Shown here: positions 1,990-48,481 of the stretch, in pieces | Layout: the number at the start of each line of letters is the position of its first letter | Position numbering within the stretch: the first letter of the stretch is position 1 | IMG/VR virus record: IMGVR_UViG_2582581022_000007 | Span: 1-48,575 of that record | Origin: a virus | Lineage: Duplodnaviria; Heunggongvirae; Uroviricota; Caudoviricetes | Direction: 5' to 3' (one strand) | DNA length: 48,575 nt | Program-made: the position numbers and the translations under genes | The notes under the pieces: model-generated | What the model saw: only the letters and a program-made list of their open reading frames with translations | Databases searched by the model: none | What the model was told of the DNA's origin: nothing

Positions 1990-2246
1990 TGGATGTAAAA
2001 GAGAAGGTTTTGCAGGTGATACGTTCCCGTGCGGCCCTGCAAGAGAAAGCTCTCGGCGGGGAATATCCATTCACGATAGCAACCTGGAATCTGCGGTTGG
2101 CAATGGAGAAGGAATTTCCTGATGAAGAATGGCGCTCGGCAGATTTGCGCAAAATTCTTATGGAGCTGGCTAAAGACGGAACAGTATCTAAAGATACCCA
2201 TGCCAGCCGGATTGGTCAGGCGGTATGGAGACTGGAGGTGAGGTAA
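1986..2246 (+). CDS. hypothetical phage protein (86 aa)
   Basis: ATG at 1986 with CAGGAGG RBS 5 nt upstream, overlapping stop of previous gene. Confidence 0.5.
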   Translation: MMDVKEKVLQVIRSRAALQEKALGGEYPFTIATWNLRLAMEKEFPDEEWRSADLRKILMELAKDGTVSKDTHASRIGQAVWRLEVR

Positions 2247-2607
2247 TGGCTAAATCCGCAGCAGAACGCAAAGCCGCGCAGCGGGCCCGCCAGGCTGAAT
2301 CTGGTAACCGCAAGCTTGAATTGCAACTCGATGAGCAGGAGCATGAGATGCTGGCGCGGAACTGCGCCGCCCGGCGCCCTGGTCGTGCGCCGCCCGGCGC
2401 CCTGGTCGTGCGCCGTATGAGATGAGCGAGTACATCGCGTTGCTTATCCGCCAGGATGATGCGCGAGTTCGTGGCCGTATCAAGTCAATCAGCACCAACC
2501 GCTGCGGCAAGTGCGGCGATGCGTTGCCGGTTAAGTCGTGTCCGTGCGATGGTGATTCGGCATGTTGGGTGACGCGTGGCTGGCATGAGACTAAATTATC
2601 AGTGTGA
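2246..2607 (+). pseudogene. phage gene split into two overlapping ORFs (2246..2425 and 2422..2607) by a 23-bp tandem duplication; C-terminal Cys-rich zinc-finger-like part
   Basis: Removing one 23-bp unit fuses both ORFs into one ~112-aa frame (..RRPGRAPYEMSEYIALLIRQDD..); current ORFs overlap in ATGA. Confidence 0.5.
2364..2409. repeat. perfect 23-bp tandem duplication (GCGCCGCCCGGCGCCCTGGTCGT x2, plus 6-bp partial third copy to 2415)
   Basis: Direct inspection: 2364-2386 identical to 2387-2409. Confidence 0.9.
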
Positions 2608-2616
2608 CATGTCACG
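2603..2616. promoter_or_regulatory. TGTGACATGTCAC palindrome, copy 1 of 3
   Basis: GTGACATGTCAC at 2604-2615 overlapping the stop codon; same 12-mer recurs at 4846-4857 and 23216-23227. Confidence 0.4.
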
Positions 2617-2637
2617 ATATCGACAATAAATTGCAAT

Positions 2638-2664
2638 GGCCGCCGACTATGGCGGCTTTGTTTT
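2638..2664 (+). terminator. rho-independent terminator-like hairpin upstream of terS
   Basis: GGCCGCC-gactat-GGCGGC hairpin followed by TTTGTTTT. Confidence 0.55.
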
Positions 2665-2710
2665 GCGTGTTACTATTACCAAAATGGTAATTATTACTTT
2701 GGTGGTAACA

Positions 2711-3340
2711 ATGCCCGCAGAACCTAAAGCACCAAAACGCAAATCAACGCAGTATAAGCCACTGACAGCGATGCAGGAGGCTTACGCGCAGGAATACACC
2801 AAATGCCCTGAGAATCAGACTCAGGCAGCGATTAACGCAGGATTCTCACCTAATACGGCAGCGGTAAAAGCCAGCGTCATGATGCGTGATGAGCGTATCC
2901 AGAAACGGATCGCCGAACTGATGGAAGAGCGCAACAAGCGTCTGCGTGTCAGTGCTGATTACGTGCTGCTCCGCCTGGTGGAAATCGACCAGATGGATGT
3001 GCTGGACATCCTGAATGAAGATGGCTCAATGAAGCCGATCAGCAGCTGGCCAAAGGTATGGCGTACTTCTCTCAGTGCTCTTGATATTGCAACGATAAAA
3101 ACCACGCAGGCATCACTGCAAAAAGATAATGGTGAAGCGGATCTGTCAGTTGAGGATGTAGAGCATATTCTCAAAAAAATAAAATGGCCGGACAAGGTGA
3201 AGAACCTTGAGCTTATCGGTAAGCACGTCGACGTCAATGCGTTCAAAGAGCGCCTGGAGGTTTCCGGTACCGTCACGATTGCCGACCGCATGGCGAAGGC
3301 CCGTCGTCGCGTGAAAGAACAGGCTGGTGGTGAAGAATGA
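2711..3340 (+). CDS. terminase small subunit
   Basis: Immediately upstream of and overlapping terL; N-terminal region (AMQEAYAQEY...QTQAAINAGFSPNTAAVKASVMMRDERIQKRI) resembles terminase small subunit HTH region; start chosen at ATG 2711 because the ORF-track start at 2636 would span the terminator hairpin. Confidence 0.7.
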   Translation: MPAEPKAPKRKSTQYKPLTAMQEAYAQEYTKCPENQTQAAINAGFSPNTAAVKASVMMRDERIQKRIAELMEERNKRLRVSADYVLLRLVEIDQMDVLDILNEDGSMKPISSWPKVWRTSLSALDIATIKTTQASLQKDNGEADLSVEDVEHILKKIKWPDKVKNLELIGKHVDVNAFKERLEVSGTVTIADRMAKARRRVKEQAGGEE

Positions 3341-4861: not shown

Positions 4862-5278
4862 TTATTTTTCGCTCATTATCTGCTTCAGAAGATAACCTTC
4901 CAGCATCCAGATTTTATTTACCGCATTTTCGCGGGAAATCTTTCGCCCGATCTCTGGGTCGAAGTTCTCAGGGCTGGCGCATGCACTCTCGCCGGTGACA
5001 GTGAATCCATTTCGCAGCACTAGAACGCAAAACGTAAGTACTGCAGCCTGCTCAGGAATGTTCAACTCCTCAACCTTTTCATCATCTGACTTTGTATCAG
5101 TCAAATATTGATGGCGACCTGCTATACCATCAGCAGCCGTGAAGTAATGCTCACTTACTATAACGTCGGCAATCCGTTGTGGCGTAATGCGCGGCGCGTT
5201 TAAGCCTTTAGCCTGAATTTCCTGCTCGATTGCCATGCAGGATGGTGCTGGAGATGCGGTTGATACCATGATTTTCAC
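4862..5278 (-). CDS. hypothetical protein (moron between terL and portal)
   Basis: 138-aa ORF on opposite strand to the structural operon, AAGGTGA RBS 5 nt before ATG, own terminator. Confidence 0.5.
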   Translation of the reverse strand: MKIMVSTASPAPSCMAIEQEIQAKGLNAPRITPQRIADVIVSEHYFTAADGIAGRHQYLTDTKSDDEKVEELNIPEQAAVLTFCVLVLRNGFTVTGESACASPENFDPEIGRKISRENAVNKIWMLEGYLLKQIMSEK

Positions 5279-5476
5279 CTTAAAAAAATGCCCACCGAAG
5301 TGGGAGAACTGGAAGCAAGGGTGCCTTCCATGGCTTTACGGGTTTACAGCGCAACGTCATCGCAATGGCGTTCTGCTGTAAAAGTGACGGTGGTCAGCAT
5401 CAAGGGAAACTGCCACCGCCAATAGCTACACAGCATCGTTCTTATGGGCGCTTCATCACGGTCCTAAGGCGTGATC

Positions 5477-5553
5477 TGGTGCGGCATGCAGGATTCGAAC
5501 CTGCGACCAACCGCTTAGAAGGCGGTTGCTCTATCCAACTGAGCTAATGCCAC
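5477..5553 (-). tRNA. tRNA-Arg (anticodon UCU)
   Basis: Reverse complement folds as cloverleaf: acceptor GTGGCAT/ATGCCGC, D-arm GCTC-AGTTGGAT-AGAGC, anticodon stem ACCGC/GCGGT with loop CTTCTAA, T-arm GCAGG-TTCGAAT-CCTGC, 3' ACCA. Confidence 0.85.
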
Positions 5554-23475: not shown

Positions 23476-24165
23476 TCAGAACTTACCAGCCATGCTGTTG
23501 ATGTACTGCGTATGAGTCTGGATATCGCGCAGGCATTTACTGGCGCCGACAATATAGCTCATCATGGCCGCGAACTCTGCTACAGCACCTTCAACATCAT
23601 GCCCGTCGGAATCCAGTTGGCGCAGCAGGTTCATCATCAAAGAGTGCTCTCTCAAACCAAGAACACCTTCAGGTGAATGGATGTGTTCACGGTAGTTTGG
23701 CTTGAGTGGGGCGCTGTATTCCTGTTTCTCTTCCGTCTTCATCGCTTCCAGAATGGCGGGCATGAAGCTGGCTACAACCTTTTGCGCTTTGTCTGCCGGT
23801 GATAATTCTTCACGAACGTATCGACCAGTGCGGCGGATTTGCGGAAGAACGTCGCCAGTTACCCATTTGCGGAAACGATAGGGGATAGTACCAGGAGTTA
23901 CCGCATCGCGGCAGCGCAGGATCAGAGTGTAGAGGCCGGATTCAGAGATGATGAGGGTATTAGGGTTCCCTCGTTTTCCGTCGGTTAAAGCGACGGTATT
24001 CTTTTCGTCGTCATCCAATTTAAGCAGAGCATCACGGTTGTTTGATATACCAAGAGCATTACATACATCTAACGCAATAAACCATGGCTCGCCGTCGATG
24101 ATGATTGCACGAATATCGGCTTGCGATTCGAAAGAAAAAACTGAAGTATTTTTTTGAGTTGTCAT
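23476..24165 (-). CDS. phage antirepressor (Bro-N/AntA-like N-terminal domain)
   Basis: N-terminal FSFESQADIRAIIIDGEPWFIALDVCNALGI resembles Bro-N/AntA; start set at ATG 24165 with GGTGA RBS. Confidence 0.7.
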   Translation of the reverse strand: MTTQKNTSVFSFESQADIRAIIIDGEPWFIALDVCNALGISNNRDALLKLDDDEKNTVALTDGKRGNPNTLIISESGLYTLILRCRDAVTPGTIPYRFRKWVTGDVLPQIRRTGRYVREELSPADKAQKVVASFMPAILEAMKTEEKQEYSAPLKPNYREHIHSPEGVLGLREHSLMMNLLRQLDSDGHDVEGAVAEFAAMMSYIVGASKCLRDIQTHTQYINSMAGKF

Positions 24166-24323
24166 AGTGATCACCTTTTAGTCTGGTTAATCACCACCGG
24201 AGGTTCCAATCTCGGAGGTGGTGAACTGTGCAGGGTTGGAACTACCGGCTAAAAGGACCCGGCGCACCTTTCGGTGCCCCCACACAGCCCACCATAATGC
24301 GAATGTGGCCGTGCTTAACGCAT

Positions 24324-24343
24324 AAAAAAACCGCTTGCGCGGT
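24324..24343 (-). terminator. rho-independent terminator on minus strand
   Basis: Minus-strand ACCGCGCAAGCGGT hairpin followed by TTTTTTT. Confidence 0.5.
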
Positions 24344-24480
24344 GAATGCGCCTTTTAGTATCCGGGGTTCCAATCCCGGCACTGGATTTTGCCAGTGCCT
24401 GATCACTATGGCACAAGTATTTTGCGTTGTAAATTTACCGTAAAGGTAATAATAAACGCATTATGTAGGTTATTTCAACC

Positions 24481-29880: not shown

Positions 29881-31071
29881 ATGTTGACTGACACCAGGCT
29901 GCGTCACCTTAAGCCGAAGGAGAAACTCTATAAAGTTAATGACCGTGATGGTCTGTATGTTGCGGTCACTCCGGCTGGAACTATTTCATTTCGTTATAAC
30001 TATTCAATAAACGGAAGACAGGAGACCGTTACTTTTGGCCGCTATGGTGTTGGAGGGATCACGCTTGCAGAAGCGCGTGAACGGCTCAATGAAGCTAAAA
30101 AAATGGTTGCCAGTGGAAGATCGCCAGCGAGGGAAAAAGCTAGAGATAAAGCTCGTATCAAAGATGCGGAGACTTTTGGTGCATGGGCTGAGAAATGGTT
30201 ACGCGGTTATCAAATGGCTGAATCGACGCGTGATATGCGGCGTTCGGTATATCAAAGGGAGTTGAAGTCAAAATTTGCGCAGCAGAAATTGACCGAGATT
30301 ACACATGAAGACTTACGCGCATTAACCGATAACATTGTCGAGAGAGGGGCACCGGCGACAGCTGTGCACGCCAGAGAGATTGTATTGCAAGTCTATCGCT
30401 GGGCTATTGAGCGCGGTCAGAAGGTTGAGAATCCCGCTGATCTGGTACGGCCTGCAAGCATAGCGAAATTTGAGCCTCGTGACAGGGCATTGACGCCAGT
30501 TGAAATTGGTCTGATGTATCGGTACATGGAACGGGTAGGAACGACGCCATCAATCAGAGCAGCGGTTAAACTTTTGCTGTTAACGATGGTACGTAAAAGT
30601 GAGCTTACTAACGCAACCTGGAACGAGATCAATTTTAGTGAGGCATTATGGACGATACCAAAGGAGAGGATGAAACGACGTAATCCACATTTGGTTTTTC
30701 TTTCCAGACAGGCAATGGATATTATGATTGCTCTCAAAACCTTTGCCGGTAGCTCTGATTTTATCCTTCCTTCGCGGTACGATTCCGATGCGCCAATGAG
30801 TAGCGCTACTTTAAACCGGGTTTTGACACTGACGTATCGTCTGGCTCAGAAAGAAGGGGACTTGTTACCTAAGTTTGGTCCCCATGACTTACGGCGTACT
30901 GCCAGCACCTTGCTACATGAGGCCGGGTACAATACTGACTGGATTGAGAAGTGCCTTGCCCATGAACAAAAGGGGGTACGAGCTGTTTATAACAAGGCTG
31001 AATATCGTGAGCAGAGGGCCGAGATGCTACAAGATTGGGCGAATATGATTGATGAATGGACTAGTAAGTAG
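29881..31071 (+). CDS. int: tyrosine recombinase/integrase, P4-type
   Basis: N-terminal arm-binding-like region (RLRHLKPKEKLYKVNDRDGLYVAV); C-terminal catalytic signature HDLRRTASTLLHEAGY...CLAHEQKGVRAVYNKAEY. Confidence 0.9.
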   Translation: MLTDTRLRHLKPKEKLYKVNDRDGLYVAVTPAGTISFRYNYSINGRQETVTFGRYGVGGITLAEARERLNEAKKMVASGRSPAREKARDKARIKDAETFGAWAEKWLRGYQMAESTRDMRRSVYQRELKSKFAQQKLTEITHEDLRALTDNIVERGAPATAVHAREIVLQVYRWAIERGQKVENPADLVRPASIAKFEPRDRALTPVEIGLMYRYMERVGTTPSIRAAVKLLLLTMVRKSELTNATWNEINFSEALWTIPKERMKRRNPHLVFLSRQAMDIMIALKTFAGSSDFILPSRYDSDAPMSSATLNRVLTLTYRLAQKEGDLLPKFGPHDLRRTASTLLHEAGYNTDWIEKCLAHEQKGVRAVYNKAEYREQRAEMLQDWANMIDEWTSK

Positions 31072-31125
31072 TTAATAATCAGTGATTTAAGTGGATATAC
31101 TTCTTTTATCTACGCCAGGAGAGCA

Positions 31126-31142
31126 ATTTTAGCCGCTAAAAT
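31126..31142. promoter_or_regulatory. 17-bp perfect palindrome ATTTTAGCCGCTAAAAT (KorB operator-like), copy 1
   Basis: Matches the TTTAGC(C/G)GCTAAA IncP KorB operator consensus as I recall it; ~55 bp upstream of gene 31195. Confidence 0.5.
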
Positions 31143-31194
31143 TTACTGAATCTTTACTGGTTTTATCTGGATTGCATAAAAAGGAAAAATAAAA

Positions 31195-31824
31195 GTGCCT
31201 GAGTTGTCTGTAATTATACAATGGATGAATCAATACCCTAAGACCGGCTGGCTATTGCTGTGTATCTATATTGCACTCGGTGTAGTTCGTCACAGAGTAA
31301 TTAATGCTGAATCTGGAAGTGTATTTCGTGGACTACTCAATCTTAGGAAGCGCCGGCTAGAGCAAATGCTGACACAGCCATATTTGAATAAAAATGCGGT
31401 CCGTCTGGCAAAGCGTGAGCTTCGTCAGCGCAGCCTTTATCGGCTCACAGGCTTGTATAATTATCGGCTGCAGGATTTGGCTGTAATAATGTGTGATCGT
31501 TATGGGTTGCGGGCTGGTTATCTCAAGCCGTGGCGTAACTGGCTCGAAGAACGGGATGGACGGATTGTGTTCAACAGGAAATGGCATTGTTTTCGCTGGC
31601 GTCTTTTTCTGGTAGGTCAGATTGTAAACACAGTTCTACTAATCTTATTCATTATGTATATAGTTTCTCATTCTTCGGCCGAAATGATCGCACCGCTTAT
31701 GTTACTCTTCATGCTTGTATGGTGGTTTCCTTGGCTAATGATCACCTCGGTACCTACCCCTAGGTGGACTCGCGAAATGGAAGTCTATCTTGAGAAATTT
31801 AACGCTGAACAGACCATGGTTTAA
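31195..31824 (+). CDS. hypothetical membrane protein
   Basis: 209 aa, several hydrophobic segments; GTG start with AAGGA RBS; flanked by palindrome copies 1 and 2. Confidence 0.45.
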   Translation: MPELSVIIQWMNQYPKTGWLLLCIYIALGVVRHRVINAESGSVFRGLLNLRKRRLEQMLTQPYLNKNAVRLAKRELRQRSLYRLTGLYNYRLQDLAVIMCDRYGLRAGYLKPWRNWLEERDGRIVFNRKWHCFRWRLFLVGQIVNTVLLILFIMYIVSHSSAEMIAPLMLLFMLVWWFPWLMITSVPTPRWTREMEVYLEKFNAEQTMV

Positions 31825-31961
31825 ACTGTTCTTTGTTACCATGCATTCAGAGTGAATTGTCAGAGTTTTGGAAGATTCCATCCTACGAGTAATACTCACA
31901 AGGTAATTCACATAATCAATAGGTTAAGTCATAAGCTTCTTGACCCTACATGAGAAGACGA

Positions 31962-31978
31962 ATTTTAGCTGCTAAAAG
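31962..31978. promoter_or_regulatory. KorB operator-like palindrome, copy 2 (ATTTTAGCTGCTAAAAG)
   Basis: One central and one terminal mismatch; flanking ~15 bp also resemble copy 1. Confidence 0.4.
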
Positions 31979-32401
31979 TTTGGGCATATTTGGACTTAAA
32001 TGCCACCGACATGATTCTAATAATTAAGCCAGTACCTAATGAGCCAAGAGAAGACAACTGTAAACGCCCCTTGGCTTAGACTTGCTTTCAGGAAAGCGAA
32101 TGCTTTTTATGGTCAGGGACAAGTAAGGGGATGAGCCATTGCATAACCATAAAACCAATTCGTTCTATGTCATTACAGATCGGCTTCAGTGATTTACTGG
32201 TGAGGTAGTATCACTGTGATCCGTTTTGCATAACGCTTACAGCTGCGCTACAAACAATAAACTATAATACTGTATTTTCAAAATCATCAATTTGAAGCAG
32301 GGTAATCGCGAAAAACCCTCGTAAGTGGCTGGTTATAATTCAATAAAGTGGATGATATTAAGACTTAAACTGCCACCATAATAGCTCGTGGATATACTAT
32401 T

Positions 32402-33373
32402 TTAAATATAAAATTCTTTCCTCACAGACGCTAAGGCCTTGGACACAGCCTGCTTTGTCATAGTTGTGTAGTGATTTTTTTCTAAAACCTGTGCGGTTTC
32501 AAACTGGTTAAAACCTTGGTGTTTTAATATGATTATTTTTTTCTTAGTATCAGTGAATTTGGAGTCAACCATTCGTCTGGCAATATTCCTAAGTTTATCT
32601 AGATCTGCTGGGGTTAAAGTTTGACCCTGCATCCACTCATGAAAATAGGTATCAATCAATATATCCCCTGTGTTTGCGTTAGCTTTATGCGGTTTAGCGC
32701 ATTGCCGTCTAAGCCTTATTAATTCTTTATTGAACTGTTCGAGAGACCGCTTTCCTTGTCTGTATTTGGGATTCCATAGACCATTGGTGAGTTTGGGCCT
32801 ATGGTCAGAACAATATCGATGACTAAGGACCTGTTTTTCATGAACGGGGAACTCATTATCGTTAGCAACAAATTCTGATATCTCACTGATCAACTTGGAA
32901 AATTCGGTTAGATTACCGCAGAACTCGCAATAACCGAGCTTACGCTGTGAATTTATAGTTACTCCTTTTGCAGGAGAGGATTTCTTCGGCCGCTTGGATG
33001 CGCACTCACTGACTAATTCAATAAGAGACTCAATCGTAGCGGTAAAGCATTTATCAAGAGAAGTTTGTTGATCTAAAGTCAGAACGAAATTACGCAAAAG
33101 AAGTCTTTGTGCCTGTACTACGACGTTTAAGCCCACTTTTTTAAGTACATCACTAAATCCTAGATTTACTCCAGAAATGTAGTCTTTATGACTTGGTGGC
33201 AGGGAATTTACATAAGCAGCTACTGCTGGATCAATAACTTCCTGTATGAGACGCAGTATTGGATACCTCCGTGAAAATATGGAGTACGGATAACTACGCT
33301 CTACAAATAATTTAATTGCAGCTGCAACTGTGAGGTCACAGCCTTCCCAGATAGTAATTTTCATGTCAACCAT
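32402..33373 (-). CDS. hypothetical regulator-like protein with Cys/His cluster and C-terminal HTH-like segment
   Basis: AT-rich ORF divergent from alpA; CEFCGN...CSDH cluster; start set at first ATG not overlapping alpA; no convincing RBS. Confidence 0.4.
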   Translation of the reverse strand: MVDMKITIWEGCDLTVAAAIKLFVERSYPYSIFSRRYPILRLIQEVIDPAVAAYVNSLPPSHKDYISGVNLGFSDVLKKVGLNVVVQAQRLLLRNFVLTLDQQTSLDKCFTATIESLIELVSECASKRPKKSSPAKGVTINSQRKLGYCEFCGNLTEFSKLISEISEFVANDNEFPVHEKQVLSHRYCSDHRPKLTNGLWNPKYRQGKRSLEQFNKELIRLRRQCAKPHKANANTGDILIDTYFHEWMQGQTLTPADLDKLRNIARRMVDSKFTDTKKKIIILKHQGFNQFETAQVLEKNHYTTMTKQAVSKALASVRKEFYI

Positions 33374-33450
33374 TTTAGCCAATGAATAGGTTTTAGCAAG
33401 TGGTAATGCTTGGCATTGTATAGGCCTGATTGGAAACAGGAGGAAGGCAG

Positions 33451-33681
33451 ATGCAAACAAAGGCACATAGCACGCTCATTAACAGAAAAACACTTCTGGA
33501 AATGATCCCATTGTCAGCCCGCACTATTTATAACCTTGAACAGCGAGGCGAGTTTCCTCGCCGTATAGCACTTACTAGTCGAAATGTTGCATGGCAGTTA
33601 TCCGAAGTGGAACAGTGGATTGCGGATCGTAAATCAGCAATGTTTAAAGCGGCCAGACCCGGTGTTGTTTTAGGTAGGTAA
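33451..33681 (+). CDS. alpA: AlpA-family transcriptional regulator (prophage CP4-57 regulatory protein type)
   Basis: ~76 aa with LLEMIPLSARTIYNLEQRGEFPRRI HTH; AGGAGGAAGG RBS before ATG 33451. Confidence 0.75.
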   Translation: MQTKAHSTLINRKTLLEMIPLSARTIYNLEQRGEFPRRIALTSRNVAWQLSEVEQWIADRKSAMFKAARPGVVLGR

Positions 33682-33686
33682 CAGCA

Positions 33687-34544
33687 ATGTCATTGAACAT
33701 AATGGAAGCATTTGAAGCTAAGCCACAACCAATTGATTACGTCTTGCCTAATTTGGCTATTGGTACTATCGGAGCGATTGTTTCTCCGGGAGGCGCTGGA
33801 AAGTCAATGCTGGCATTACAATTGGCTGTGCAGATTACTTGTGGTGTAGATCTTTTAAACTTTGGTGAATATCCGACTGGGTTGGTGGCATATTTACCTG
33901 TGGAGGACTCTGAAACCATCGTTCACCATCGTTTATATGCGTTGGGAAAATATCTAACAGCACGTCAGCAGCAGATTGTAGCTGATAAGCTACTGGTCGA
34001 ACCTTTGGTAGGGAAGTGTCCAAATATTTTCTTGCCGGATTGGAGCAACTTGATCAATGAAGTTTCAAAAGGTAGACGTTTAATAATTTTGGATACTCTT
34101 CGCCGTTTCCACCAGGAGGATGAGAATAATAGCGCAGCAATGTCCAAAGTCATTGGAAAGCTAGAAGGTATTGCTGCTGATACTGGATGTTCGATTATAT
34201 TTCTACACCATTCAAACAAAGGCGCTGCCACGATGGGGGTTGGTGATATACAGCAGGCAAGCAGGGGTAGTAGCGTCCTGGTTGATAATATACGGTGGCA
34301 ATCTTATCTGGCGGGCATGACCGCCTTGGAAGCGAAGACGTATGGTATTTCTGATGATGTTCGAGGTCAATTTGTTAGATTTGGAATAAATAAAGTAAAT
34401 TATGGAGAACGTGCGCCAGATCGTTGGTTACAGAGACATGAGGGGGGAGTATTAAAAATAACGGCGCTCAGCTCGAAGAATAATAAAAAGCTTACTAAAG
34501 AAAGAACATCTACCTGGAGTGGCGCTGACAATGACAACTGGTAA
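33687..34544 (+). CDS. RecA-fold P-loop ATPase (AAA_25/RepA-like)
   Basis: Walker A IVSPGGAGKSMLALQLA, Walker B-like RLIILDTL, IIFLHHSNK; typical partner of alpA in integrative islands. Confidence 0.6.
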   Translation: MSLNIMEAFEAKPQPIDYVLPNLAIGTIGAIVSPGGAGKSMLALQLAVQITCGVDLLNFGEYPTGLVAYLPVEDSETIVHHRLYALGKYLTARQQQIVADKLLVEPLVGKCPNIFLPDWSNLINEVSKGRRLIILDTLRRFHQEDENNSAAMSKVIGKLEGIAADTGCSIIFLHHSNKGAATMGVGDIQQASRGSSVLVDNIRWQSYLAGMTALEAKTYGISDDVRGQFVRFGINKVNYGERAPDRWLQRHEGGVLKITALSSKNNKKLTKERTSTWSGADNDNW

Positions 34545-35313
34545 TAAAGTGGCACCCACAAGTACAGCTTGGCAAGCCCGAGTAATTCTGTACCAGCCAA
34601 GCCAGCGTCCTAAGGAGGTGAAGGGACAATGGATGGAGACTAGTTTTGGTCGTTGTCGTGTTACCGGACGGCTCGGACAGCGTCATGCCGATATCGTAGA
34701 GACAATATTATATGTTGCCGAGCAACGTCGTGAAATTTCTGATGGTGGAATCGAATTATTAGTAGATCCAGCGAAAGTACGCCGAACGCTATCCGATGCA
34801 CAATACAGTTATGGTCGTATACAGAAATTGCTTTTAGATCTGCGCGTCGCAACAGTTGAAATTATAACGCCAGAGCTGGAGAAAAGCGGCGACTGTATAA
34901 TAGGGGGACTGATCGATCATGTAGTGCCATCACCTATGACGCGTCCAGATCCTTTGACTGGGGGAGAACGCCGTTTATGGCGTGTCCGTCTGGGTGTTGC
35001 ATTAGCGATGTTACTCAAAAAAGATTTGCCATTTTATTATCATCCTGGCCCCATAGCTCGGCTACAACATGGTATTAGCCAGGCAGTCGCTCGTCATGTC
35101 TTAACCCATAGTAATAATCCTTTAGGAGGGTGGTATATGGATACGTTGATATTAGCAGTATGCGGTGAAGGAACGAGTAATATGACTTTACGTAACTATC
35201 GTCGGAGATTGAAAGAAGATTCCGTGCAATTGCTGGAAATTGGAATTGATTTGAACGGTTCTAGGATAAAACGTGTCACAACGGCCCGATATTGTGTCAC
35301 AACGGCCCGATAG
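34519..35313 (+). CDS. hypothetical protein, possibly replication-associated (3' end overlaps iteron array)
   Basis: 264-aa ORF; last ~40 nt lie within 21-bp iterons; start codon uncertain (GTG 34519 or ATG 34531). Confidence 0.35.
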   Translation: MALTMTTGNKVAPTSTAWQARVILYQPSQRPKEVKGQWMETSFGRCRVTGRLGQRHADIVETILYVAEQRREISDGGIELLVDPAKVRRTLSDAQYSYGRIQKLLLDLRVATVEIITPELEKSGDCIIGGLIDHVVPSPMTRPDPLTGGERRLWRVRLGVALAMLLKKDLPFYYHPGPIARLQHGISQAVARHVLTHSNNPLGGWYMDTLILAVCGEGTSNMTLRNYRRRLKEDSVQLLEIGIDLNGSRIKRVTTARYCVTTAR

Positions 35314-35356
35314 CGTGTTATAGCGGCCCGGTAGCGTGCTACAGCGGCCCGATTTT
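35273..35356. repeat. iteron-like array, 4 tandem 21-bp repeats (GTGTCACAACGGCCCGATATT and variants)
   Basis: Units at 35273, 35294, 35315, 35336 share GTG-yyAyAgCGGCCCGrTa core; followed by AT-rich region with GATC sites. Confidence 0.7.
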
Positions 35357-35564
35357 TTACTATTCAGCAGTATTTACAGGATCGTTCAGGATCTACAGTC
35401 TTTGAAATCACCTGCCTGAGCAGGCGCTTTCAAATCTAGAATCGGCCAAAGGCCGATGGTTGTACGCCAGAAGAAGAGATTACTTACTCGTTTGGTATAT
35501 TGACACTTGAGGTAGGTTTTATGACATATGAGGTACGCCCCTAGCTTTAGGCATAGGGAGGAAG

Positions 35565-35581
35565 ATTTTAGCCGCTAAAAT
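35565..35581. promoter_or_regulatory. KorB operator-like perfect palindrome ATTTTAGCCGCTAAAAT, copy 3
   Basis: Identical 17-mer to copy 1; ~400 bp upstream of mobC-like gene. Confidence 0.5.
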
Positions 35582-35970
35582 CTGCAATGCACATGCTTTG
35601 ACAATGTAAGTAAAAAAGTGCATGAGAAAATAAAATATTTCTTACAATATATCGAAACATAAATACAGTTGGTGGACGCCCATTTATAACTACTAAAGGT
35701 CATTTTCAAAAGGGAGAAATATAGTTTCCTTGCAAGAAACACATTTGCTGCAGATCTTTACCCGAGTAATCCTATATTAATACGCTAAGAAAACACATCC
35801 TGTACACTGAAATACACATTGATGTGCACAGATATACTACGGCAACAGGAGGGCAGGACATGTAAAGTAGGCCCACCGCTACGGTGTTCCAACTTTACCA
35901 CTCCCTATTCGCCGCATCGCGGCTCAAGGGCGTCCTGCTCTGCCAGGCTACCGCCTGTATGGAGAGCTAT

Positions 35971-36324
35971 ATGAAAGTTACTCAGACTAGAAAAAATAGT
36001 ACGCCAATAAAAGTTTATTGTTTACCCGAAGAAAAAATTCTCATCCAAGAAAATGCAGAAGCATCTGGATTAAGTGTTGCCTGTTTTGTTCGTAGAGTTG
36101 CAATGGGTTATCAGGTTGATTCTATCGTAGATATAAAACAGGTTAATGAACTTAGCCGAGTAAACGCTGATCTTGGAAGACTTGGCGGATTACTTAAATT
36201 ATGGCTCGCAAATGATCCTCGAACAGTTGATTTTTCACCCACCCTGATAAGAACCTTGCTTGCGAAAATAGAATCAACTCGGCAAGAACTAAGGAACATT
36301 ATGGATAAAATCTTGGATAAATAA
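35971..36324 (+). CDS. MobC-like ribbon-helix-helix mobilisation accessory protein (putative)
   Basis: 117 aa from ATG 35971 (GGAGAG RBS); IKVYCLPEEKILIQENAEASGLSVACFVRRVAMG resembles relaxosome RHH proteins. Confidence 0.45.
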   Translation: MKVTQTRKNSTPIKVYCLPEEKILIQENAEASGLSVACFVRRVAMGYQVDSIVDIKQVNELSRVNADLGRLGGLLKLWLANDPRTVDFSPTLIRTLLAKIESTRQELRNIMDKILDK

Positions 36325-36405
36325 ATGTGTGGTTTCCTATATACCTGCGTCTGTTAAAAGACAGTGTGTTAAATATTACTGAACTGATGAAAAAGAGGTG
36401 AGCAA

Positions 36406-37200
36406 ATGAATTTAATGTTCCGAGTGGTTTCATTACAAAGAGGGATTTTAGCCGCTAAAAAAGCTTTAATAGTTCCTTTCGTGGCGTCCGTCATGGCATT
36501 ACCGGTTAAGGCCGGAATTCCCGTTATTGATGGCACTAATGTGGTTCAGACCACAATCAGCGCAGTTAACAACGTTCAGGCTGTGACTAAACAGATCCAG
36601 CAGTACCAGACGCAGCTGCAGCAGTATGAAAACATGCTCAAAAATACCGTCGCACCTGCGGCCTATATCTGGGATCAGGCCAATTCAACCATCAACAAAT
36701 TGTTGCAGGCGCAGGACACTCTTAATTACTACAAAAATCAGGCCGGGAGTCTTGATTCATATCTGAAACGTTATCAGGACGTGAATTACTACCGCTCATC
36801 ACCGTGCTTTAACAGTAATGTTGAATGTACTGCAGATGAAATCAGCGCACTGCGTAAAGCAGAACAGAACAGCTCTGAGGCGCGTAAAAAGGCCAATGAC
36901 GCCGTTTTTAAGGCTCTTGATGAACAGCAAGAAACACTGCAAAGCGATGCTGATAACCTGGCAGATTTGCAAACTCAGGCAACCGGCGCACAAGGGCAAA
37001 TGGAAGCTATTCAGGCCGCTAACCAGCTTGCAAGTGCTCAAACGAACCAGCTGCTGCAAATCCGCTCGCTCCTGGTAGCCCAGCAAAACGCTGCAGCAAC
37101 ACTGGCACAGGCTCAGGCAGATAAAGAATCACAACAGATAGCCGCTGATGAAAAAGCGTTAGCTGGAGAGAATACACCAAGCCCGAAGCGAATTTGGTGA
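36406..37200 (+). CDS. trbJ: TrbJ/VirB5-like type IV secretion protein
   Basis: Signal peptide, Q-rich coiled-coil (QIQQYQTQLQQYENMLKNT), ~260 aa, followed by small lipoprotein and TrbL-like gene as in IncP trbJ-trbK-trbL. Confidence 0.6.
   Translation: MNLMFRVVSLQRGILAAKKALIVPFVASVMALPVKAGIPVIDGTNVVQTTISAVNNVQAVTKQIQQYQTQLQQYENMLKNTVAPAAYIWDQANSTINKLLQAQDTLNYYKNQAGSLDSYLKRYQDVNYYRSSPCFNSNVECTADEISALRKAEQNSSEARKKANDAVFKALDEQQETLQSDADNLADLQTQATGAQGQMEAIQAANQLASAQTNQLLQIRSLLVAQQNAAATLAQAQADKESQQIAADEKALAGENTPSPKRIW
36445..36461. promoter_or_regulatory. KorB operator-like palindrome, copy 4 (ATTTTAGCCGCTAAAAA), inside trbJ 5' end
   Basis: 16/17 palindrome; encodes ILAAK within the putative signal peptide. 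Confidence 0.4.
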
Positions 37201-37211
37201 GGAAACGCAGA

Positions 37212-37385
37212 ATGAAAGATAATCTTTTGATTGTATTTATTCTGATCAGTTTATTGGCCATATGTTCTTGCGATAAAAATGATAAAGATTGTTTATCGAC
37301 GCCAGATAATAAATTTGATGAAAATAAATACGATAAATGTGCTCTACGGAGTAATAATAAACCAAGCCCTAAACGAGAATGGTAA
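37212..37385 (+). CDS. trbK: small lipoprotein, TrbK-like (entry exclusion) by position
   Basis: MKDNLLIVFILISLLAICSC signal/lipobox-like N-terminus, 57 aa, between trbJ-like and trbL-like genes. Confidence 0.45.
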   Translation: MKDNLLIVFILISLLAICSCDKNDKDCLSTPDNKFDENKYDKCALRSNNKPSPKREW

Positions 37386-38779
37386 TCATGAAAATAGCAA
37401 GTAAGCTCACCTTTCTAGGTATCATAATTTTCTTTTCTATAAATGCCTATGCTGGTCAATTAGATAGTAGCGGGCTACTTGATTCTTTATTAGATAAGTT
37501 TCAACAAGTAGCCAGTACATGGACAACAGTAATTGCTGACTATGCAAATTGGCTCTTCTGGGGGCTGGTATTAATAAGTATGGTTTGGACATTTGGTATG
37601 ATGGCAATGCAAGGAGAAGGGTTGACAGGCGTACTTGCTGAAATAGTTCGCTTTTTTGCCGTCATTGGTTTTTTTTATTATCTTTTAATCAACGGCCCAT
37701 CCATATCGCAATCCATAATTAATTCAATGAGGCAACTTGCAGCAAACGCTTTAGGAATAAGTACTGGTATTTCGCCCTCAAGCATAGTTGATATGGCGTT
37801 TGCGATATTAACAAAGGTCAGTTCAGCCGCATCAATTTGGTCGCCAATGATATCCACCATTATGATAACAGTAGCGATAATCGTTTTGGTAGTGATGTCC
37901 CTTATAGCGATAAATATGCTAATCATGTTGGTTTCTGCATGGGTGTTATGTTATGCAGGAGTTATATTGCTTGGATTTAGTGGTTCGAAATGGACCTCTG
38001 ATATAGCAATTAATTACTTACGAACTGTTTTATCGATTGGCATTCAATTATTCACGATGACATTAATTATTGGGATTGGACAATCATTTATAGATCAATA
38101 TTTTTCTCTTATTAAAGATGATGTTCCTGATCTTAATAGTCTTATCGTTTTGCTTCTGGCGTCAATTATCCTGTTAGTATTAACGAATAAGCTACCACTG
38201 TTGTTATCAGGTGTTGTAGGAGGAGCTTCTTTACAAGGGATTGGTGGATTTGGGGCGGGTATGATTACTGGCGCTGCCGCTACTGCCATCAGCGGTGCTG
38301 GAGCAATTGCAATGGGGGCATCAGCTCAAGTCAGCGGCGGAGCCTCTGCATTAAAGGCAGCGTTCGAGTCTGCGCAAGCTGCCATGGCCGAGGAATCTGG
38401 TTCAGGTGGTGGAGGCGGTTCCGGTGGAGGATTTGGCGTCGGGGAAGATACCGGTTCTGTAGATACTTCTGGAGGCCAACCCTCAGGCAGTTCCGGTGGT
38501 TCGTCAGCATGGAGCAGTTCAGTTAGCTCCAGCGGAGGAAGTCAGGGGTTTGCTTCATTCTCACGAGCTGGCCGCATGGCAAGCCATATGGGAAGCATCA
38601 TGGCCAACGGAGCTGCTGAGTACCAGAAAATGAAGCGAAGTAGCAATTCTTCTCGTGTCCAACAAACTATTGGAGGGGAGTTGGCGACTCAGATACGTAA
38701 GCAGACAGCTACTCATCGGGATAACCGCGAACATGATGATTTTGCCGATGATAGCTTATCGGGTAATAATAAATCTTGA
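37379..38779 (+). CDS. trbL: TrbL/VirB6-like polytopic membrane protein
   Basis: 466 aa, many transmembrane segments, Gly/Ser-rich C-terminal tail (SGSGGGGGSGGGFGVGEDTGS). Confidence 0.65.
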   Translation: MVIMKIASKLTFLGIIIFFSINAYAGQLDSSGLLDSLLDKFQQVASTWTTVIADYANWLFWGLVLISMVWTFGMMAMQGEGLTGVLAEIVRFFAVIGFFYYLLINGPSISQSIINSMRQLAANALGISTGISPSSIVDMAFAILTKVSSAASIWSPMISTIMITVAIIVLVVMSLIAINMLIMLVSAWVLCYAGVILLGFSGSKWTSDIAINYLRTVLSIGIQLFTMTLIIGIGQSFIDQYFSLIKDDVPDLNSLIVLLLASIILLVLTNKLPLLLSGVVGGASLQGIGGFGAGMITGAAATAISGAGAIAMGASAQVSGGASALKAAFESAQAAMAEESGSGGGGGSGGGFGVGEDTGSVDTSGGQPSGSSGGSSAWSSSVSSSGGSQGFASFSRAGRMASHMGSIMANGAAEYQKMKRSSNSSRVQQTIGGELATQIRKQTATHRDNREHDDFADDSLSGNNKS

Positions 38780-38860
38780 ATCATGTGCGTCAGTTAACGA
38801 GGTAGCGTGAGCTGACGCTTTCACTGTGCGAACTTTACTCCTGCAATTCAAAGGAAAAAC

Positions 38861-39325
38861 ATGTCCAGGACTCCCTATACACGGTTACGTATTGAGGGCT
38901 TCCGCAAAGCAGAGGCTTCCCTGAGACTTGAAGGAATGGACCCCAGTGGTACGCCACTGTACGAGTCCATTAAGGCACGTATTATTTCAGGTGAACTGAC
39001 GTATGAGCAGGGGCGTTCAGAGATTCTTACATACTACACAAAAGCAGATACTGACGGGCCTGTGACAGTGGGAGAGATGCTGGTAGAGGAATTTTTAAAA
39101 CCGCTGAACATGTCTCATGATGAACTGGCGGAAGCTATGGGTATCTGCAAGCAGTATATTGACGATATTATCTGCGGTTTGCGTCGTCTTACGGATGATG
39201 AGGCTCGCGTTCTTGCTGTCATATTTGGTACTGATGAGGACTTTTGGAGTAACCTTCAAAAGTTGCAAGATTGCAAGGAAAACCAAGTAAGTAGCCTTCG
39301 TCCACTTCGTGTTAGACCATGCTAG
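38861..39325 (+). CDS. HigA-like XRE-family HTH protein with N-terminal VbhA/FicA-like SxxxEG motif region
   Basis: C-terminal VGEMLVEEFLKPLNMSHDELAEAMGICKQYIDDIICGLRRLTDDEARVLAVIFGTDEDFWSNLQ matches HigA antitoxin HTH pattern; N-terminal ASLRLEGMDPSG has the (S/T)xxxE(G/N) motif. Confidence 0.55.
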   Translation: MSRTPYTRLRIEGFRKAEASLRLEGMDPSGTPLYESIKARIISGELTYEQGRSEILTYYTKADTDGPVTVGEMLVEEFLKPLNMSHDELAEAMGICKQYIDDIICGLRRLTDDEARVLAVIFGTDEDFWSNLQKLQDCKENQVSSLRPLRVRPC

Positions 39326-39514
39326 CTGCTCTTCACATGTCATGAATGTTAGAATATTTGTTCAAAGTCATTTCTTCAGAGCAAAATTTTTAATAGCGGA
39401 TAGAAAAATGCAAGGTATGTTGGAAAAATAAACGAAGCGAGTACGCAAACGTCTTGAAATGCAGTAACATCATTCCGCCACACTGGCAGTTGGCTAACGG
39501 CGAAAGGAGTTCAT

Positions 39515-40747
39515 GTGAGCCAAGAAGATGATGATAAGTATCCAGCTAGCGCCGTATCCTCATGGAGCGGCTTCGTTTATCAAGGGAAAATTGCATTATA
39601 TCACTCCCTCAAGATTATTCACGATGGCGATCTAGACTTTGAGCTTCAGCTAGACAGTAGTGACGACTTCGCTATTTATAAAAATGGAAAACTACACACA
39701 GCCCATCAAGTCAAAGCGAAGATAAGTAAATATCGAAGTGGTTACACCAAGGCGCTGGAACAGTCTACTTTAATCGAACACGACAAAATCCAAGGGACAA
39801 CGCGTTACTTCCATGTATCTGTTCCTCTAAATAATACGGACGATCATAGAGGCGCTAGCGGAGAAATAGTAAAATTCTATCGCTATGGGGATAATTATTA
39901 TTGTGGTTTGGGTGAAATTGAAGGGCTTACCAAAGAACTAATAAAAAAAATATGTAATAAGCAGCACATCATTGTCAGTGATAACCTTATAAATTTTAAC
40001 TATTGTTTACTTTCTGAAAAAATCAGCACCAAGGCAATATACAATCATAAATTAAATCAGGTTGGCGGAATTTCAGAAAACAGAGCAGCATATGAGGGTC
40101 GTATCAAGGCCAGAAATATTCTAGAAGACCTGCTAACCGAAAACCCCTATCAGAATAGGGACTACTATGCAGTTGCATTAAAGGCCAGGCTTCAAACTCA
40201 TCTGGAAGAGAGGTTGGATCAGGCGCTTCCAACAATGAGTGACACTACTTACGAGAGAGCTAGATGTCTGTGTGAGCACATTCGCGAAACTCATATCAAT
40301 GAATTGAAAGCCCTATGCCAGATGATGAAGCCCTCCGAGCGATTTCAAGACGTTCAGACGAACGACATCAGGCGATACACCAAGCTTATCCAGGCTATTT
40401 CGGTGGAGCCTATATTCAACCACCTCCCACACTACCTTGACAGCGAAAATCGATTTTACGTACCTACCGCTCTTGATGTAGATGAAAGCGAAGAGTGTGA
40501 GTTTGACATGACCCGTGAAATGAAAAACAACGGGGATCTGCTGAGACTACTTTTTGAGTATAACCATCTAATCGCCAGCAAAGCAGAAGCCTCATTCACC
40601 TTTAATACAAAATTTACAAACTCAGATGACTTCGACAACAAGCAGACCACTGAAAAGCTCGAAAGCAACATCACCAAGTCGCTATGCATTAGCGTGATAA
40701 CAAAAGACGATGCGGAGGAACGACTGAATGATAAAGCAACTCATTGA
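39515..40747 (+). CDS. candidate defence effector, LmuA-like (N-terminal PD-(D/E)xK-like nuclease motifs)
   Basis: GTG start with AAAGGAG RBS; GFVYQGKIALYHS...DLDFELQLDSSDDF...HQVKAK suggests D...D...(E/Q)xK nuclease; first gene of coupled operon. Confidence 0.45.
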   Translation: MSQEDDDKYPASAVSSWSGFVYQGKIALYHSLKIIHDGDLDFELQLDSSDDFAIYKNGKLHTAHQVKAKISKYRSGYTKALEQSTLIEHDKIQGTTRYFHVSVPLNNTDDHRGASGEIVKFYRYGDNYYCGLGEIEGLTKELIKKICNKQHIIVSDNLINFNYCLLSEKISTKAIYNHKLNQVGGISENRAAYEGRIKARNILEDLLTENPYQNRDYYAVALKARLQTHLEERLDQALPTMSDTTYERARCLCEHIRETHINELKALCQMMKPSERFQDVQTNDIRRYTKLIQAISVEPIFNHLPHYLDSENRFYVPTALDVDESEECEFDMTREMKNNGDLLRLLFEYNHLIASKAEASFTFNTKFTNSDDFDNKQTTEKLESNITKSLCISVITKDDAEERLNDKATH

Positions 40748-41393
40748 TGAAGCACTTGTTGCACATGGCTTTGTTAGTAAACGCGACTTGGACAACACAA
40801 GCTTTTATATTCGCGAGTCTGGATCTGCTATCAGGTTTGCAGTTCTATATAATCTTGATGACCTTCCTGACCCAGCCGAATTGAATAATAGAATCAATCA
40901 TCTTGCTCCTAGTGAATTTCTCAGAAACCCAAGCTTTAAGAAAAACTGCGACTTGATTTGTATTTATCGTCTTGATGTTCTGGCCAATTTCAAAGATCAC
41001 GAAGAAGAGATTTTCGCAATTGAAGAAGATCCGCACTTCTATAAAAAGTATGTTCTCTATTACAGTATCGCGGAAGAAAGTGCACTCACTAATTTCACCT
41101 ACGACAAACTGGTATCTGTTATTGCTGACAAAAAAGAATTTCTTGAATACAAAGAAAATCCTCTTAACGCCACACAATACAGCTTTGCGGCGAAGACCTT
41201 TATCAAGCTTCCTTTTTTAGAGTTACCTAACCATCAAGAAAATCTTGTGTCCTTGAGGTTACAGGCAGCAGAGGCCGTTGCACAAGCCAGCCTGAACGAT
41301 ACGTATTTGACTATCCAGAAAGTCACAGATAAAAACGCCGACGAAATTATCAAGGAAATGATTAAAAATGAACTGGCAAATATCCAAGATTGA
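40728..41393 (+). CDS. small middle-gene protein of the operon (LmuC-like by position)
   Basis: 221 aa; overlaps upstream gene by 20 nt and downstream gene by 26 nt; GGAGGA RBS. Confidence 0.45.
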   Translation: MIKQLIDEALVAHGFVSKRDLDNTSFYIRESGSAIRFAVLYNLDDLPDPAELNNRINHLAPSEFLRNPSFKKNCDLICIYRLDVLANFKDHEEEIFAIEEDPHFYKKYVLYYSIAEESALTNFTYDKLVSVIADKKEFLEYKENPLNATQYSFAAKTFIKLPFLELPNHQENLVSLRLQAAEAVAQASLNDTYLTIQKVTDKNADEIIKEMIKNELANIQD

Positions 41394-43701: not shown

Positions 43702-43856
43702 AAGCCACCTTGGCCACCTATTAGAGCGGGTGGCTAAATTTAGTGTTTCACTACAAATAGCATAAAAGGATGCAAAAATTCGGCGAATTTATTCCACGTG
43801 TTTTTTTAAATTCAATGTATGTTAAAATTGTGTCTATTTTATATCAGGATTGTCAA

Positions 43857-44744: not shown

Positions 44745-45064
44745 TTAATTAATTGCGAAGATTATTTTTTTTGTTAATCCAGAACTAAATTGGAATGAAA
44801 AAATATGGGGTTGGGTAGTAAATAGAGCCAATTCCCCATATCCTTCATGGCAAGAATGTTTAAGCGGTATATAACACGTTTATGGACATTCATGAGTTAT
44901 GATTTTTATAAATTAGCATTTCTAAAATCAACTTGGATATTGTAAACCTAGGTCAGTTGACCAAATCTATTACGACACTATACTATACATTTGTCTTTCG
45001 TCTAAATGCCGCTAGGTCAATATCAACGGTATTGACCTTTGCTTCGAATGAATCTTTATAAATA

Positions 45065-45916: not shown

Positions 45917-45918
45917 AA

Positions 45919-47385: not shown

Positions 47386-47665
47386 TGGTCTATGTTCTTC
47401 GGATATACAAACCTTAAATTCACATCTAATTTTGAACCCGAAGTCATTTCACGATGTTTCAGCAGGTGAGATGATCACTTGACCAGCCAATGGGATATGT
47501 TCAGCGGTTTTGTTCAGGCTAAATAAAACTTTTAATGACTCCATTTATTTCCCTATTTAATCATGACTTTAACAGCAATCAATTTAGCAATTCGGTATAC
47601 CGAAGTAGATGGCAATTTGGACTGAAGTTCTCTCACTTATTCAGTTTCTAGCTGATGGTTGCGAC

Positions 47666-48237: not shown

Positions 48238-48481
48238 GATGACTTGTGGCAGAGAAACAAGAACTTCGTCAGGACATGAAAGAATCCTCAGCTTGGGCCA
48301 ACGTCGAACTAAACACCGATGAGACGCAAAAAATCAAAAAATTTACGCATGGTATAGATGATGGTATCGATAAACCTTTTCTTTATAACAAGCTGTTATT
48401 TCTATATATTTTTTTCTCGTTGATATTCGAGTGGGAATGATTTGACCCTGCACTATGAATGAACAAAACCCTCTGTTACTA

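What the first reader, a model, noticed from the sequence alone, without database searches (positions are those of the whole stretch)
2246..2607. 23-bp tandem duplication splits a phage gene into two overlapping ORFs (possible frameshift switch)
Seen: 2364-2386 and 2387-2409 are identical (GCGCCGCCCGGCGCCCTGGTCGT) and 23 is not a multiple of 3. Deleting one copy fuses ORF 2246..2425 and ORF 2422..2607 into one ~112-aa frame (..AARRPGRAPYEMSEYIALLIRQDD..CGKCGDALPVKSCPCDGDSACW). In the present state the two ORFs overlap in ATGA, so coupled translation of two polypeptides is possible. A perfect direct repeat suggests a recent, possibly reversible slipped-strand or recombination event; an assembly artefact is also possible.
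Basis: seen in the sequence. Interest (0 to 1): 0.55.

Follow-up and report, generated by a model that had tools for sequence, protein, structure and literature searches.

The report
Recurrent 23-bp duplication breaks prophage gene
A perfect 23-base tandem duplication, made by replication slippage between two 7-base repeats, has very recently frameshifted a small conserved prophage gene in this E. coli isolate, and the same mutation has arisen independently in at least eight related prophages, so it is a mutational hotspot rather than a designed two-gene arrangement.

Summary
Window 2364-2386 equals 2387-2409; the full array is 2363-2415, two 23-bp units plus a trailing 7-mer (TGCGCCG). Removing one unit restores a 112-aa ORF that matches PHROG 536 (epsilon15 gp49-like, function untested) end to end.

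Relatives are overwhelmingly single-copy, and their single copy is flanked by the same 7-mers, the classic substrate for slipped-strand duplication. Six independently assembled contigs match the window over 5.6-7.5 kb with zero mismatches and one 23-bp gap, so the event is very recent.

The same duplication, at the same nucleotide, occurs in seven further DNA-verified backgrounds. These are at most 90.6% identical to each other outside the array, on both G and T backbone variants. About six more backgrounds are known only from the diagnostic frameshift tail. Exact intact parent proteins exist for five of seven repaired alleles. It is therefore a recurrent hotspot, still rare: 0 of 122 matching E. 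coli complete genomes and 2 of at least 550 IMG/VR relatives.

An assembly artefact is unlikely. The ATGA overlap is not conserved among duplicated alleles, so coupled translation is incidental. A reversible switch is mechanistically possible but not supported by any evidence here.

The parts
2246..2607 (+). Disrupted gene. With one 23-bp unit removed it is a 339-nt, 112-aa member of PHROG 536 (epsilon15 gp49-like small Cys4 protein). It is the last gene before the terminator and the small terminase gene.
   Evidence: Repaired translation matches phrog_536 at E 5e-52 over residues 1-111. It aligns without gaps to 112-aa CDSs of PAT1, E2348/69, H10407/SEC470 and epsilon15. The protein collection holds 778 clusters, nearly all 112 aa.
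2363..2415 (+). 53-nt tandem array: unit 1 (2363-2385), unit 2 (2386-2408) and a trailing 7-mer (2409-2415). It begins at gene nucleotide 118 (codon 40, Cys).
   Evidence: TRF period 23, 2.3 copies, 100% matches. Exact extent computed and confirmed.
2363..2369 (+). TGCGCCG microhomology, first occurrence. The second is at 2386-2392 and the third at 2409-2415. Single-copy relatives have two occurrences 23 nt apart.
   Evidence: Alignment A1 shows TGCGCCG...16 nt...TGCGCCG in single-copy homologues. 33 of 90 distinct single-copy alleles keep both 7-mers.
2246..2425 (+). ORF A: native residues 1-49, then a 10-aa frameshift tail PGALVVRRMR and a stop.
   Evidence: This exact 59-aa product is on record only on this contig.
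2422..2607 (+). ORF B: native residues 52-112 (third helix plus the four invariant cysteines), starting at internal Met52. Its expression is unproven.
   Evidence: Invariant C79, C82, C91 and C99 in alignment A2. No gene with this product is on record.
2604..2615 (+). Perfect palindrome GTGACATGTCAC overlapping the stop codon (TGA 2605-2607). It is conserved in 4 of 5 aligned homologues. Its role is unknown; it may be a protein-binding site.
   Evidence: Read.
2638..2665 (+). Rho-independent terminator-like hairpin plus T-run between the gene and the small terminase gene. It corresponds to the terminator annotated at the end of the epsilon15 genome.
   Evidence: 8-bp stem, 6 GC pairs, TTGTTTTG tail. 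Epsilon15 annotation.

Best explanation
A real and very recent microhomology-mediated (slipped-strand) tandem duplication. In the progenitor gene, two copies of TGCGCCG lie 23 nt apart (codons 40-42 and 47-49). During replication the nascent strand mispaired between them and copied the 23-nt unit twice.

Because 23 is not a multiple of 3, translation leaves the native frame after residue 49 and stops 10 codons later. The break falls at the end of the second predicted helix and in the loop before the third, so the conserved core is split from the Cys4 tail. The most likely result is loss of function of a small, putatively DNA-binding phage protein.

The site is a mutational hotspot: the same event has happened independently in many related prophages. 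The duplicated state can in principle revert by the reverse slippage.

Shown: the anatomy, the single-copy ancestry, the recency and the recurrence. Inferred: the slippage mechanism, the loss of function and the reversibility.
For: (1) The array is 2x23+7 nt and perfect.

(2) Single-copy relatives carry the two flanking 7-mers.

(3) L133-L136, L138 and L139 share the window's exact large terminase. They match window DNA over 5.6-7.5 kb with 0 mismatches and one 23-nt gap, and they encode the intact 112-aa protein.

(4) The exact repaired protein exists in 31 E. coli contigs.

(5) The same duplication at gene nt 118 is present in L005, L006, L114/115, L116-119, L120, L121 and L122. Each array is internally perfect and is G/G or T/T according to its backbone. 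These backgrounds are at most 90.6% identical to one another outside the array, and the window, L005 and L006 each have closer single-copy relatives.

(6) Exact intact parents exist for 5 of 7 repaired alleles: 31, 7, 609, 11 and 21 contigs.

(7) Six more backgrounds are seen through the diagnostic tail PP[GV]AL[VG]VRR.

(8) The duplicated allele is rare overall: 0 of 122 matching E. coli complete-genome records, 0 of 8 phage records, 0 of 9 plasmids, and 2 of at least 550 IMG/VR relatives.

(9) The AF2 model places the break between helix 30-42 and helix 52-76.
Against: No reads were available, so the duplication in isolate S6995 itself is not verified at read level. Loss of function is inferred, because the protein's function is unknown and no experimental work on it was found in one literature search. 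The fragments could retain or gain activity.

Two duplicated alleles persist in 9 and 11 contigs. So the lesion is at least tolerated and could even be favoured.

The searches were designed around this junction and its frameshift tail, so duplications with other endpoints would have been missed. The hotspot's share of all lesions in this gene is therefore unknown.
Confidence: 0.85

Rival explanations
1. Reversible ON/OFF contingency switch. The 1-copy and 2-copy states interconvert at appreciable rates and both are used, for example to silence or restore a phage regulator in lysogens. This would be analogous to the cap3A tandem duplications of pneumococcus.
For: The event has recurred in at least 8 backgrounds. 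In every duplicated allele except L005 and L006 the downstream frame is still intact after repair, and the two copies are always perfect. Both states exist on identical protein backgrounds for 5 alleles. Direct repeats sharing 30 nt of identity should delete readily (general knowledge of repeat-mediated deletion). A precedent for this kind of switch exists (PMC11163986 citing Waite et al. 2001).
Against: The duplicated state is rare. There are only two copies and no repeat tract built for slippage. The 7-mers are explained by the conserved residues Cys-Ala-Ala and Arg-Ala-Pro. L005 (5' truncated) and L006 (extra TAG) show further decay. The P0130 allele is found in at least four sequencing runs and has picked up a further substitution, so it is inherited stably. 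Young, perfect arrays are equally expected if mutated prophages are simply short-lived.
Confidence: 0.09
2. Assembly or sequencing artefact in this Illumina/Velvet draft.
For: This is a draft assembly from 2014 with short reads. The exact ORF A product is on record only on this contig. Close relatives differ from the window only by this 23-nt gap.
Against: The identical junction is found in independent assemblies made with other pipelines, including a complete Enterobacter genome and many Logan assemblies. A 53-nt array is shorter than a read. A single-copy locus contains no repeat longer than 7 nt that could create a graph cycle (my inference).
Confidence: 0.03
3. A functional two-polypeptide arrangement in which ORF A and ORF B are made by termination-reinitiation at the ATGA overlap and work together or separately.
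For: The ATGA overlap is present in the window. Gene callers predicted both ORFs in L114 and L115. ORF B keeps all four invariant cysteines.
Against: The overlap is not conserved: 8 of 12 duplicated-allele products extend to 66 aa past the Met codon. No Shine-Dalgarno motif lies upstream of 2422 (by eye). The split falls inside the confidently modelled helical core. The 112-aa fused form is overwhelmingly the conserved state.
Confidence: 0.03

Closest known systems
Slipped-strand mispairing / microhomology-mediated short tandem duplications (the classical spontaneous frameshift hotspots at short direct repeats, such as lacI in E. coli; from general knowledge)
   Same: Perfect head-to-tail copies. 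The unit is bounded by a short direct repeat in the progenitor. The array length equals 2 units plus the microhomology. The event recurs at the same nucleotide in independent lineages, and reverse slippage would restore the original sequence.
   Different: The unit is longer (23 nt between 7-nt repeats) than in the textbook 4-nt lacI case. Recurrence is documented here across natural prophage lineages of several genera, not in a laboratory mutation spectrum. No rates were measured.
Pneumococcal cap3A tandem-duplication phase variation (Waite et al. 2001, as summarised in PMC11163986)
   Same: An in-ORF tandem duplication switches the gene off, and precise loss of the duplication switches it on again.
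   Different: For cap3A, high-frequency switching and a phenotype were shown experimentally. Here neither switching nor any phenotype is shown, and the duplicated state is rare in the population.
Salmonella phage epsilon15 gp49 / PHROG 536 'transcriptional regulator' / 'N15 gp46-like' proteins
   Same: The repaired protein is a full-length member: same 112-aa length, same position immediately before the terminator and small terminase gene in epsilon15-like genomes, and the same invariant residues.
   Different: The window's copy is frameshifted. The family name is an annotation only. There is no Pfam or NCBIfam model and no relative with a solved structure, and no functional study turned up in one literature search.
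Simple-sequence-repeat contingency loci (homopolymer or 2-7-nt tracts)
   Same: Frameshifting by change in repeat copy number.
   Different: Those loci have long tracts of many short units and switch at high frequency. This locus normally has one copy and only occasionally two.

Membership tests
Microhomology-mediated (slipped-strand) tandem duplication | Two perfect head-to-tail copies of the unit | tested here: met
   2363-2385 equals 2386-2408, 100%
Microhomology-mediated (slipped-strand) tandem duplication | A short direct repeat bounds the unit in the single-copy progenitor; array equals 2 units plus the repeat | tested here: met
   TGCGCCG...16 nt...TGCGCCG in single-copy homologues. Array 53 = 2x23+7.
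Microhomology-mediated (slipped-strand) tandem duplication | A progenitor allele exists that differs only by the duplication | tested here: met
   Six contigs with 0 mismatches and one 23-nt gap over 5.6-7.5 kb
Microhomology-mediated (slipped-strand) tandem duplication | Elevated mutation rate at the site, dependent on the repeats | not testable with these tools
   There is only indirect support: recurrence in at least 8 backgrounds that all keep intact 7-mers. Detection was biased towards this junction.
PHROG 536 / epsilon15 gp49-like protein family | Full-length match to the family profile | tested here: met
   The repaired protein scores E 5e-52, residues 1-111 against profile positions 2-114 of 115
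PHROG 536 / epsilon15 gp49-like protein family | Invariant residues including four cysteines (C79, C82, C91, C99) | tested here: met
PHROG 536 / epsilon15 gp49-like protein family | Uninterrupted reading frame of about 112 aa | tested here: not met
   The window copy is split into 59-aa and 61-aa ORFs, so it is a disrupted allele of the family
Phase-variable contingency locus | Reversible switching at high frequency; mixed populations | not testable with these tools
   No reads or cultures were available
Phase-variable contingency locus | Both states common among close relatives | tested here: inconclusive
   Both states occur on identical protein backgrounds, with duplicated:intact contig counts of 1:31, 9:7, 11:609, 1:11 and 1:21. 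The duplicated state is rare overall.
Translationally coupled overlapping gene pair | The overlap and the two-ORF layout are conserved among relatives | tested here: not met
   Relatives have one ORF. Among duplicated alleles, 8 of 12 lack the ATGA overlap.
Ribbon-helix-helix DNA-binding proteins | Strand-helix-helix fold or a match to an RHH family | tested here: inconclusive
   No Pfam hit. The AF2 monomer shows helices 30-42 and 52-76 preceded by an unmodelled segment. The best Foldseek hits (TTHA0139, AtaR antitoxin) align about 50 residues at about 2 A, but with E above 1.

The most novel reading that the evidence does not exclude
The 7-mer pair in this widespread prophage gene acts as a built-in, reversible frameshift toggle of the cap3A type. 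Lysogens would repeatedly switch the small regulator off by the 23-bp duplication and back on by precise deletion, possibly more readily on the 'G' backbone, whose unit contains the near-palindrome GCGCCG-CC-CGGCGC. That would make it a population-level control of some prophage function.
Probability: 0.08. Interest if true: 0.6.

Novelty: new member of a known kind. Interest (0 to 1): 0.3.

Why it matters
On its own this is an ordinary frameshift lesion in a prophage gene of unknown function. Three things make it worth recording.

First, the identical 23-bp duplication recurs independently across E. coli, Salmonella, Citrobacter and Enterobacter prophages. That gives a clean natural example of a microhomology hotspot whose forward and reverse rates could be measured.

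Second, annotation pipelines will repeatedly call two small 'hypothetical proteins' of 59-66 aa and 61 aa here. These should be recognised as one disrupted gene.

Third, if the gene matters for lytic growth, the hotspot would be a recurrent route to prophage inactivation, or a reversible one. That could be tested with a simple amplicon assay.

Tried and rejected
(a) Hairpin hypothesis. The window's G variant creates GCGCCG/CGGCGC complementarity, and I asked whether this is required for the duplication. The DNA folding energies of the G and T variants (-7.6 vs -6.2 kcal/mol) are no better than those of shuffled sequences, and three T-backbone alleles also carry the duplication. So it is rejected as a requirement. 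A modest G excess remains (11:3 vs 14:19, Fisher p=0.03), but the sample is biased.

(b) One ancient duplication shared by descent or spread by recombination. This is rejected. The backgrounds differ by 9-30% outside the array, yet all arrays are perfect and match their own backbone variant. Intact exact parents also exist.

(c) The four metagenome junction hits (L007-L010) are chance matches in DNA of 65-75% GC.

(d) I first read 'CVM' in L006 as a decayed Cys motif. That position is naturally variable, so I retracted it. L006's extra TAG stop stands.

(e) Function: no Pfam or NCBIfam family, no relative in PDB sequences, only weak fold matches, and no literature on epsilon15 gp49 function.

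I used the neighbouring large terminase instead.

(g) The exact 39-nt junction gave no hit in the species-representative genome set.

Full report
**Observation**

The window reads GCGCCGCCCGGCGCCCTGGTCGT twice in tandem, at 2364-2386 and 2387-2409. Period-23 identity actually runs from 2363 to 2415: 53 nt, 2.3 copies, 100% match, and the top-scoring tandem repeat in the window. So the array is two 23-nt units followed by a third copy of the first 7 nt, TGCGCCG.

ORF 2246-2425 (59 aa) and ORF 2422-2607 (61 aa) overlap in ATGA.

**What the gene is**

The repaired protein matches PHROG 536 ('transcriptional regulator', an annotation only) over its whole length at E 5e-52. It has no Pfam or NCBIfam family.

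It is the counterpart of epsilon15 gp49. That is the last gene before a rho-independent terminator and the small terminase gene in epsilon15-like (Uetakevirus) genomes. In other, lambdoid-type prophages the same gene sits between the replication genes and DUF1367/YbcO.

The family is large: 778 clusters at 90% identity, nearly all of 112 aa. It spreads through Enterobacterales to Providencia, Proteus, Xenorhabdus and Pectobacterium. An alignment of 52 diverse members shows four invariant cysteines (C79, C82, C91, C99) and a conserved N-terminal half.

An AlphaFold model (mean pLDDT 73.5, above 90 over roughly residues 30-70) has helices at 5-18, 30-42 and 52-76 and a poorly modelled Cys-rich tail. 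Fold matches are weak: TTHA0139 and the AtaR antitoxin align about 50 residues at 2 A, but with E above 1. PDB sequences give nothing. A ribbon-helix-helix-like DNA-binding core plus a Cys4 zinc site is therefore a reasonable guess, not a result. One literature search for functional work on epsilon15 gp49 found none.

**What happened to it**

All close relatives have one copy of the unit, bounded by TGCGCCG on both sides: TGC-GCC-G of Cys40-Ala41-Ala42, and T-GCG-CCG of Arg47-Ala48-Pro49. That is the textbook substrate for slipped-strand mispairing, and the 2x23+7 anatomy is its expected product.

The duplication shifts the frame after Pro49. This yields 49 native residues plus PGALVVRRMR. The remainder, from Met52, is left as a separate ORF. 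The break lies at the end of helix 30-42 and in the loop before helix 52-76, so the confidently modelled core is cut in two.

**How recent**

The window is an entire WGS contig, JICH01000030.1. It comes from EPEC isolate S6995 (O127, EPEC1 lineage), sequenced on Illumina HiSeq and assembled with Velvet.

Contigs that encode the window's exact large terminase are its closest relatives. Six of them (L133-L136, L138, L139), from different projects, align to the window over 5.6-7.5 kb with zero mismatches and a single 23-nt gap, and they carry the intact 112-aa gene. The exact repaired protein is on record in 31 E. coli contigs. The duplication is thus the only difference from a circulating prophage, so it is a very recent event.

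**Recurrence**

A junction-specific DNA pattern found two IMG/VR contigs (L005, L006) with the same duplication in clearly diverged genes. A protein search using the junction plus the frameshift tail found eleven clusters of 59-66 aa ending in PP[GV]AL[VG]VRR.

I fetched DNA for five of those clusters (nine loci). In all nine the same 23-nt unit is duplicated at gene nucleotide 118. The two copies are identical to each other, G/G or T/T according to the backbone's own variant, and removing one copy restores an open 112-aa frame.

The eight DNA-verified backgrounds are 69-90.6% identical to one another outside the array. The window, L005 and L006 each have closer single-copy relatives. For five of seven repaired proteins, the exact intact sequence exists elsewhere, in 31, 7, 609, 11 and 21 contigs.

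One old shared duplication cannot explain perfect arrays on backgrounds that differ by 9-30%. Independent recent events can. Two duplicated alleles are present in 9 and 11 contigs, one of them in a complete Enterobacter cloacae chromosome. One of these alleles has acquired a later substitution. The allele is therefore real and stably inherited.

**Frequency**

The duplicated state is rare:
- none of 122 matching records in 5,426 complete E. coli genomes;
- none of the matching phage or plasmid records;
- 2 of at least 550 relatives in IMG/VR.

Other lesions in the gene are also rare in the sample I could inspect: one 1-nt frameshift, one nonsense codon and one stop two codons early. L005 has lost its 5' end and L006 has an additional TAG, so some duplicated alleles go on to decay.

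**Interpretation**

The best explanation is a mutational hotspot. The 7-mers are kept by the conserved Cys-Ala-Ala and Arg-Ala-Pro residues. They occasionally template a 23-nt duplication that knocks out the gene in a resident prophage.

A rough calculation from general knowledge suggests no selection need be invoked. A per-generation rate of 1e-9 to 1e-8, acting over long prophage residence, would give the sub-percent frequency seen. This is an inference and was not measured.

*Assembly artefact.* Unlikely. Junction k-mers must exist in the reads, and the same junction is found by different assemblers in many samples.

*Coupled translation.* The ATGA overlap depends only on which codon follows Met52. 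It is absent in 8 of 12 duplicated alleles, and there is no Shine-Dalgarno sequence upstream (by eye).

*Reversible switch.* Mechanistically possible, because direct repeats sharing 30 nt of identity should delete. It also has a precedent in the pneumococcal cap3A duplications (PMC11163986). Nothing here requires it, and within-population heterogeneity could not be tested.

**An unexplained detail**

Duplicated alleles are enriched for the backbone that reads CCCGGCGCCC rather than CCCGTCGCCC: 11:3, against 14:19 among susceptible single-copy alleles (Fisher p=0.03). The G variant makes the unit partly self-complementary. However, the folding energies are unremarkable and the sampling is biased, so I treat this as a lead only.

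**Verdict**

Its core interpretation holds, with the unanticipated addition that the mutation is recurrent across genera. It is a new, well-documented example of a known kind of mutation, in a gene of unknown function. Interest is modest.

Noticed in passing
window 2604-2615: A perfect 12-nt palindrome, GTGACATGTCAC, overlaps the gene's stop codon and is conserved in 4 of 5 aligned homologues. It may be a binding site for this or another regulator, just upstream of the terminator and the small terminase gene.
   Followed up: no
window 4862-5553: A PF13876 (Phage_gp49_66) gene on the minus strand (4862-5269) and a tRNA-Arg(tct) (5477-5553, minus) sit between the large terminase and the portal gene. 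The PF13876 gene occupies the same position in relatives L133-L139.
   Followed up: partly
window 24214-24398 (minus strand): Rfam matches to C4 antisense RNA (77 bits) and the isrK Hfq-binding sRNA (76 bits) lie side by side inside the prophage, next to ORF 23476-24174. This looks like a P1/P7-type c4-like immunity or anti-repressor module.
   Followed up: no
window 29881-48575: The right third of the contig is a second integrative island, not core chromosome. It holds an integrase (29881-31071), an AAA_25 protein (33687-34544), a traJ-II RNA (35851-35949), a TrbL-like protein (37379-38779), a Lamassu system LmuA/LmuC/LmuB (39515-43701) and a candidate PDC-M01 pair (45065-47385, minus).
   Followed up: partly
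window 35272-35353: A 21-nt tandem repeat of 3.9 copies (83% match) lies downstream of the AAA_25 gene in the island, overlapping the end of ORF 34519-35313. The arrangement is iteron-like and may be the island's replication origin.
   Followed up: no
L005 895-1245 and 1820-2413: In this IMG/VR prophage the duplicated gene has also lost its 5' end. It is fused to a partial second copy of the N-terminus of the downstream DUF1367-like gene, a local recombination scar.
   Followed up: partly
window 2636-2711: The small terminase ORF as mechanically called (ATG at 2636, or the gene caller's 2630) starts inside the terminator hairpin. An in-frame ATG at 2711 (MPAEPKAPKRK...) may be the true start.
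   Followed up: no
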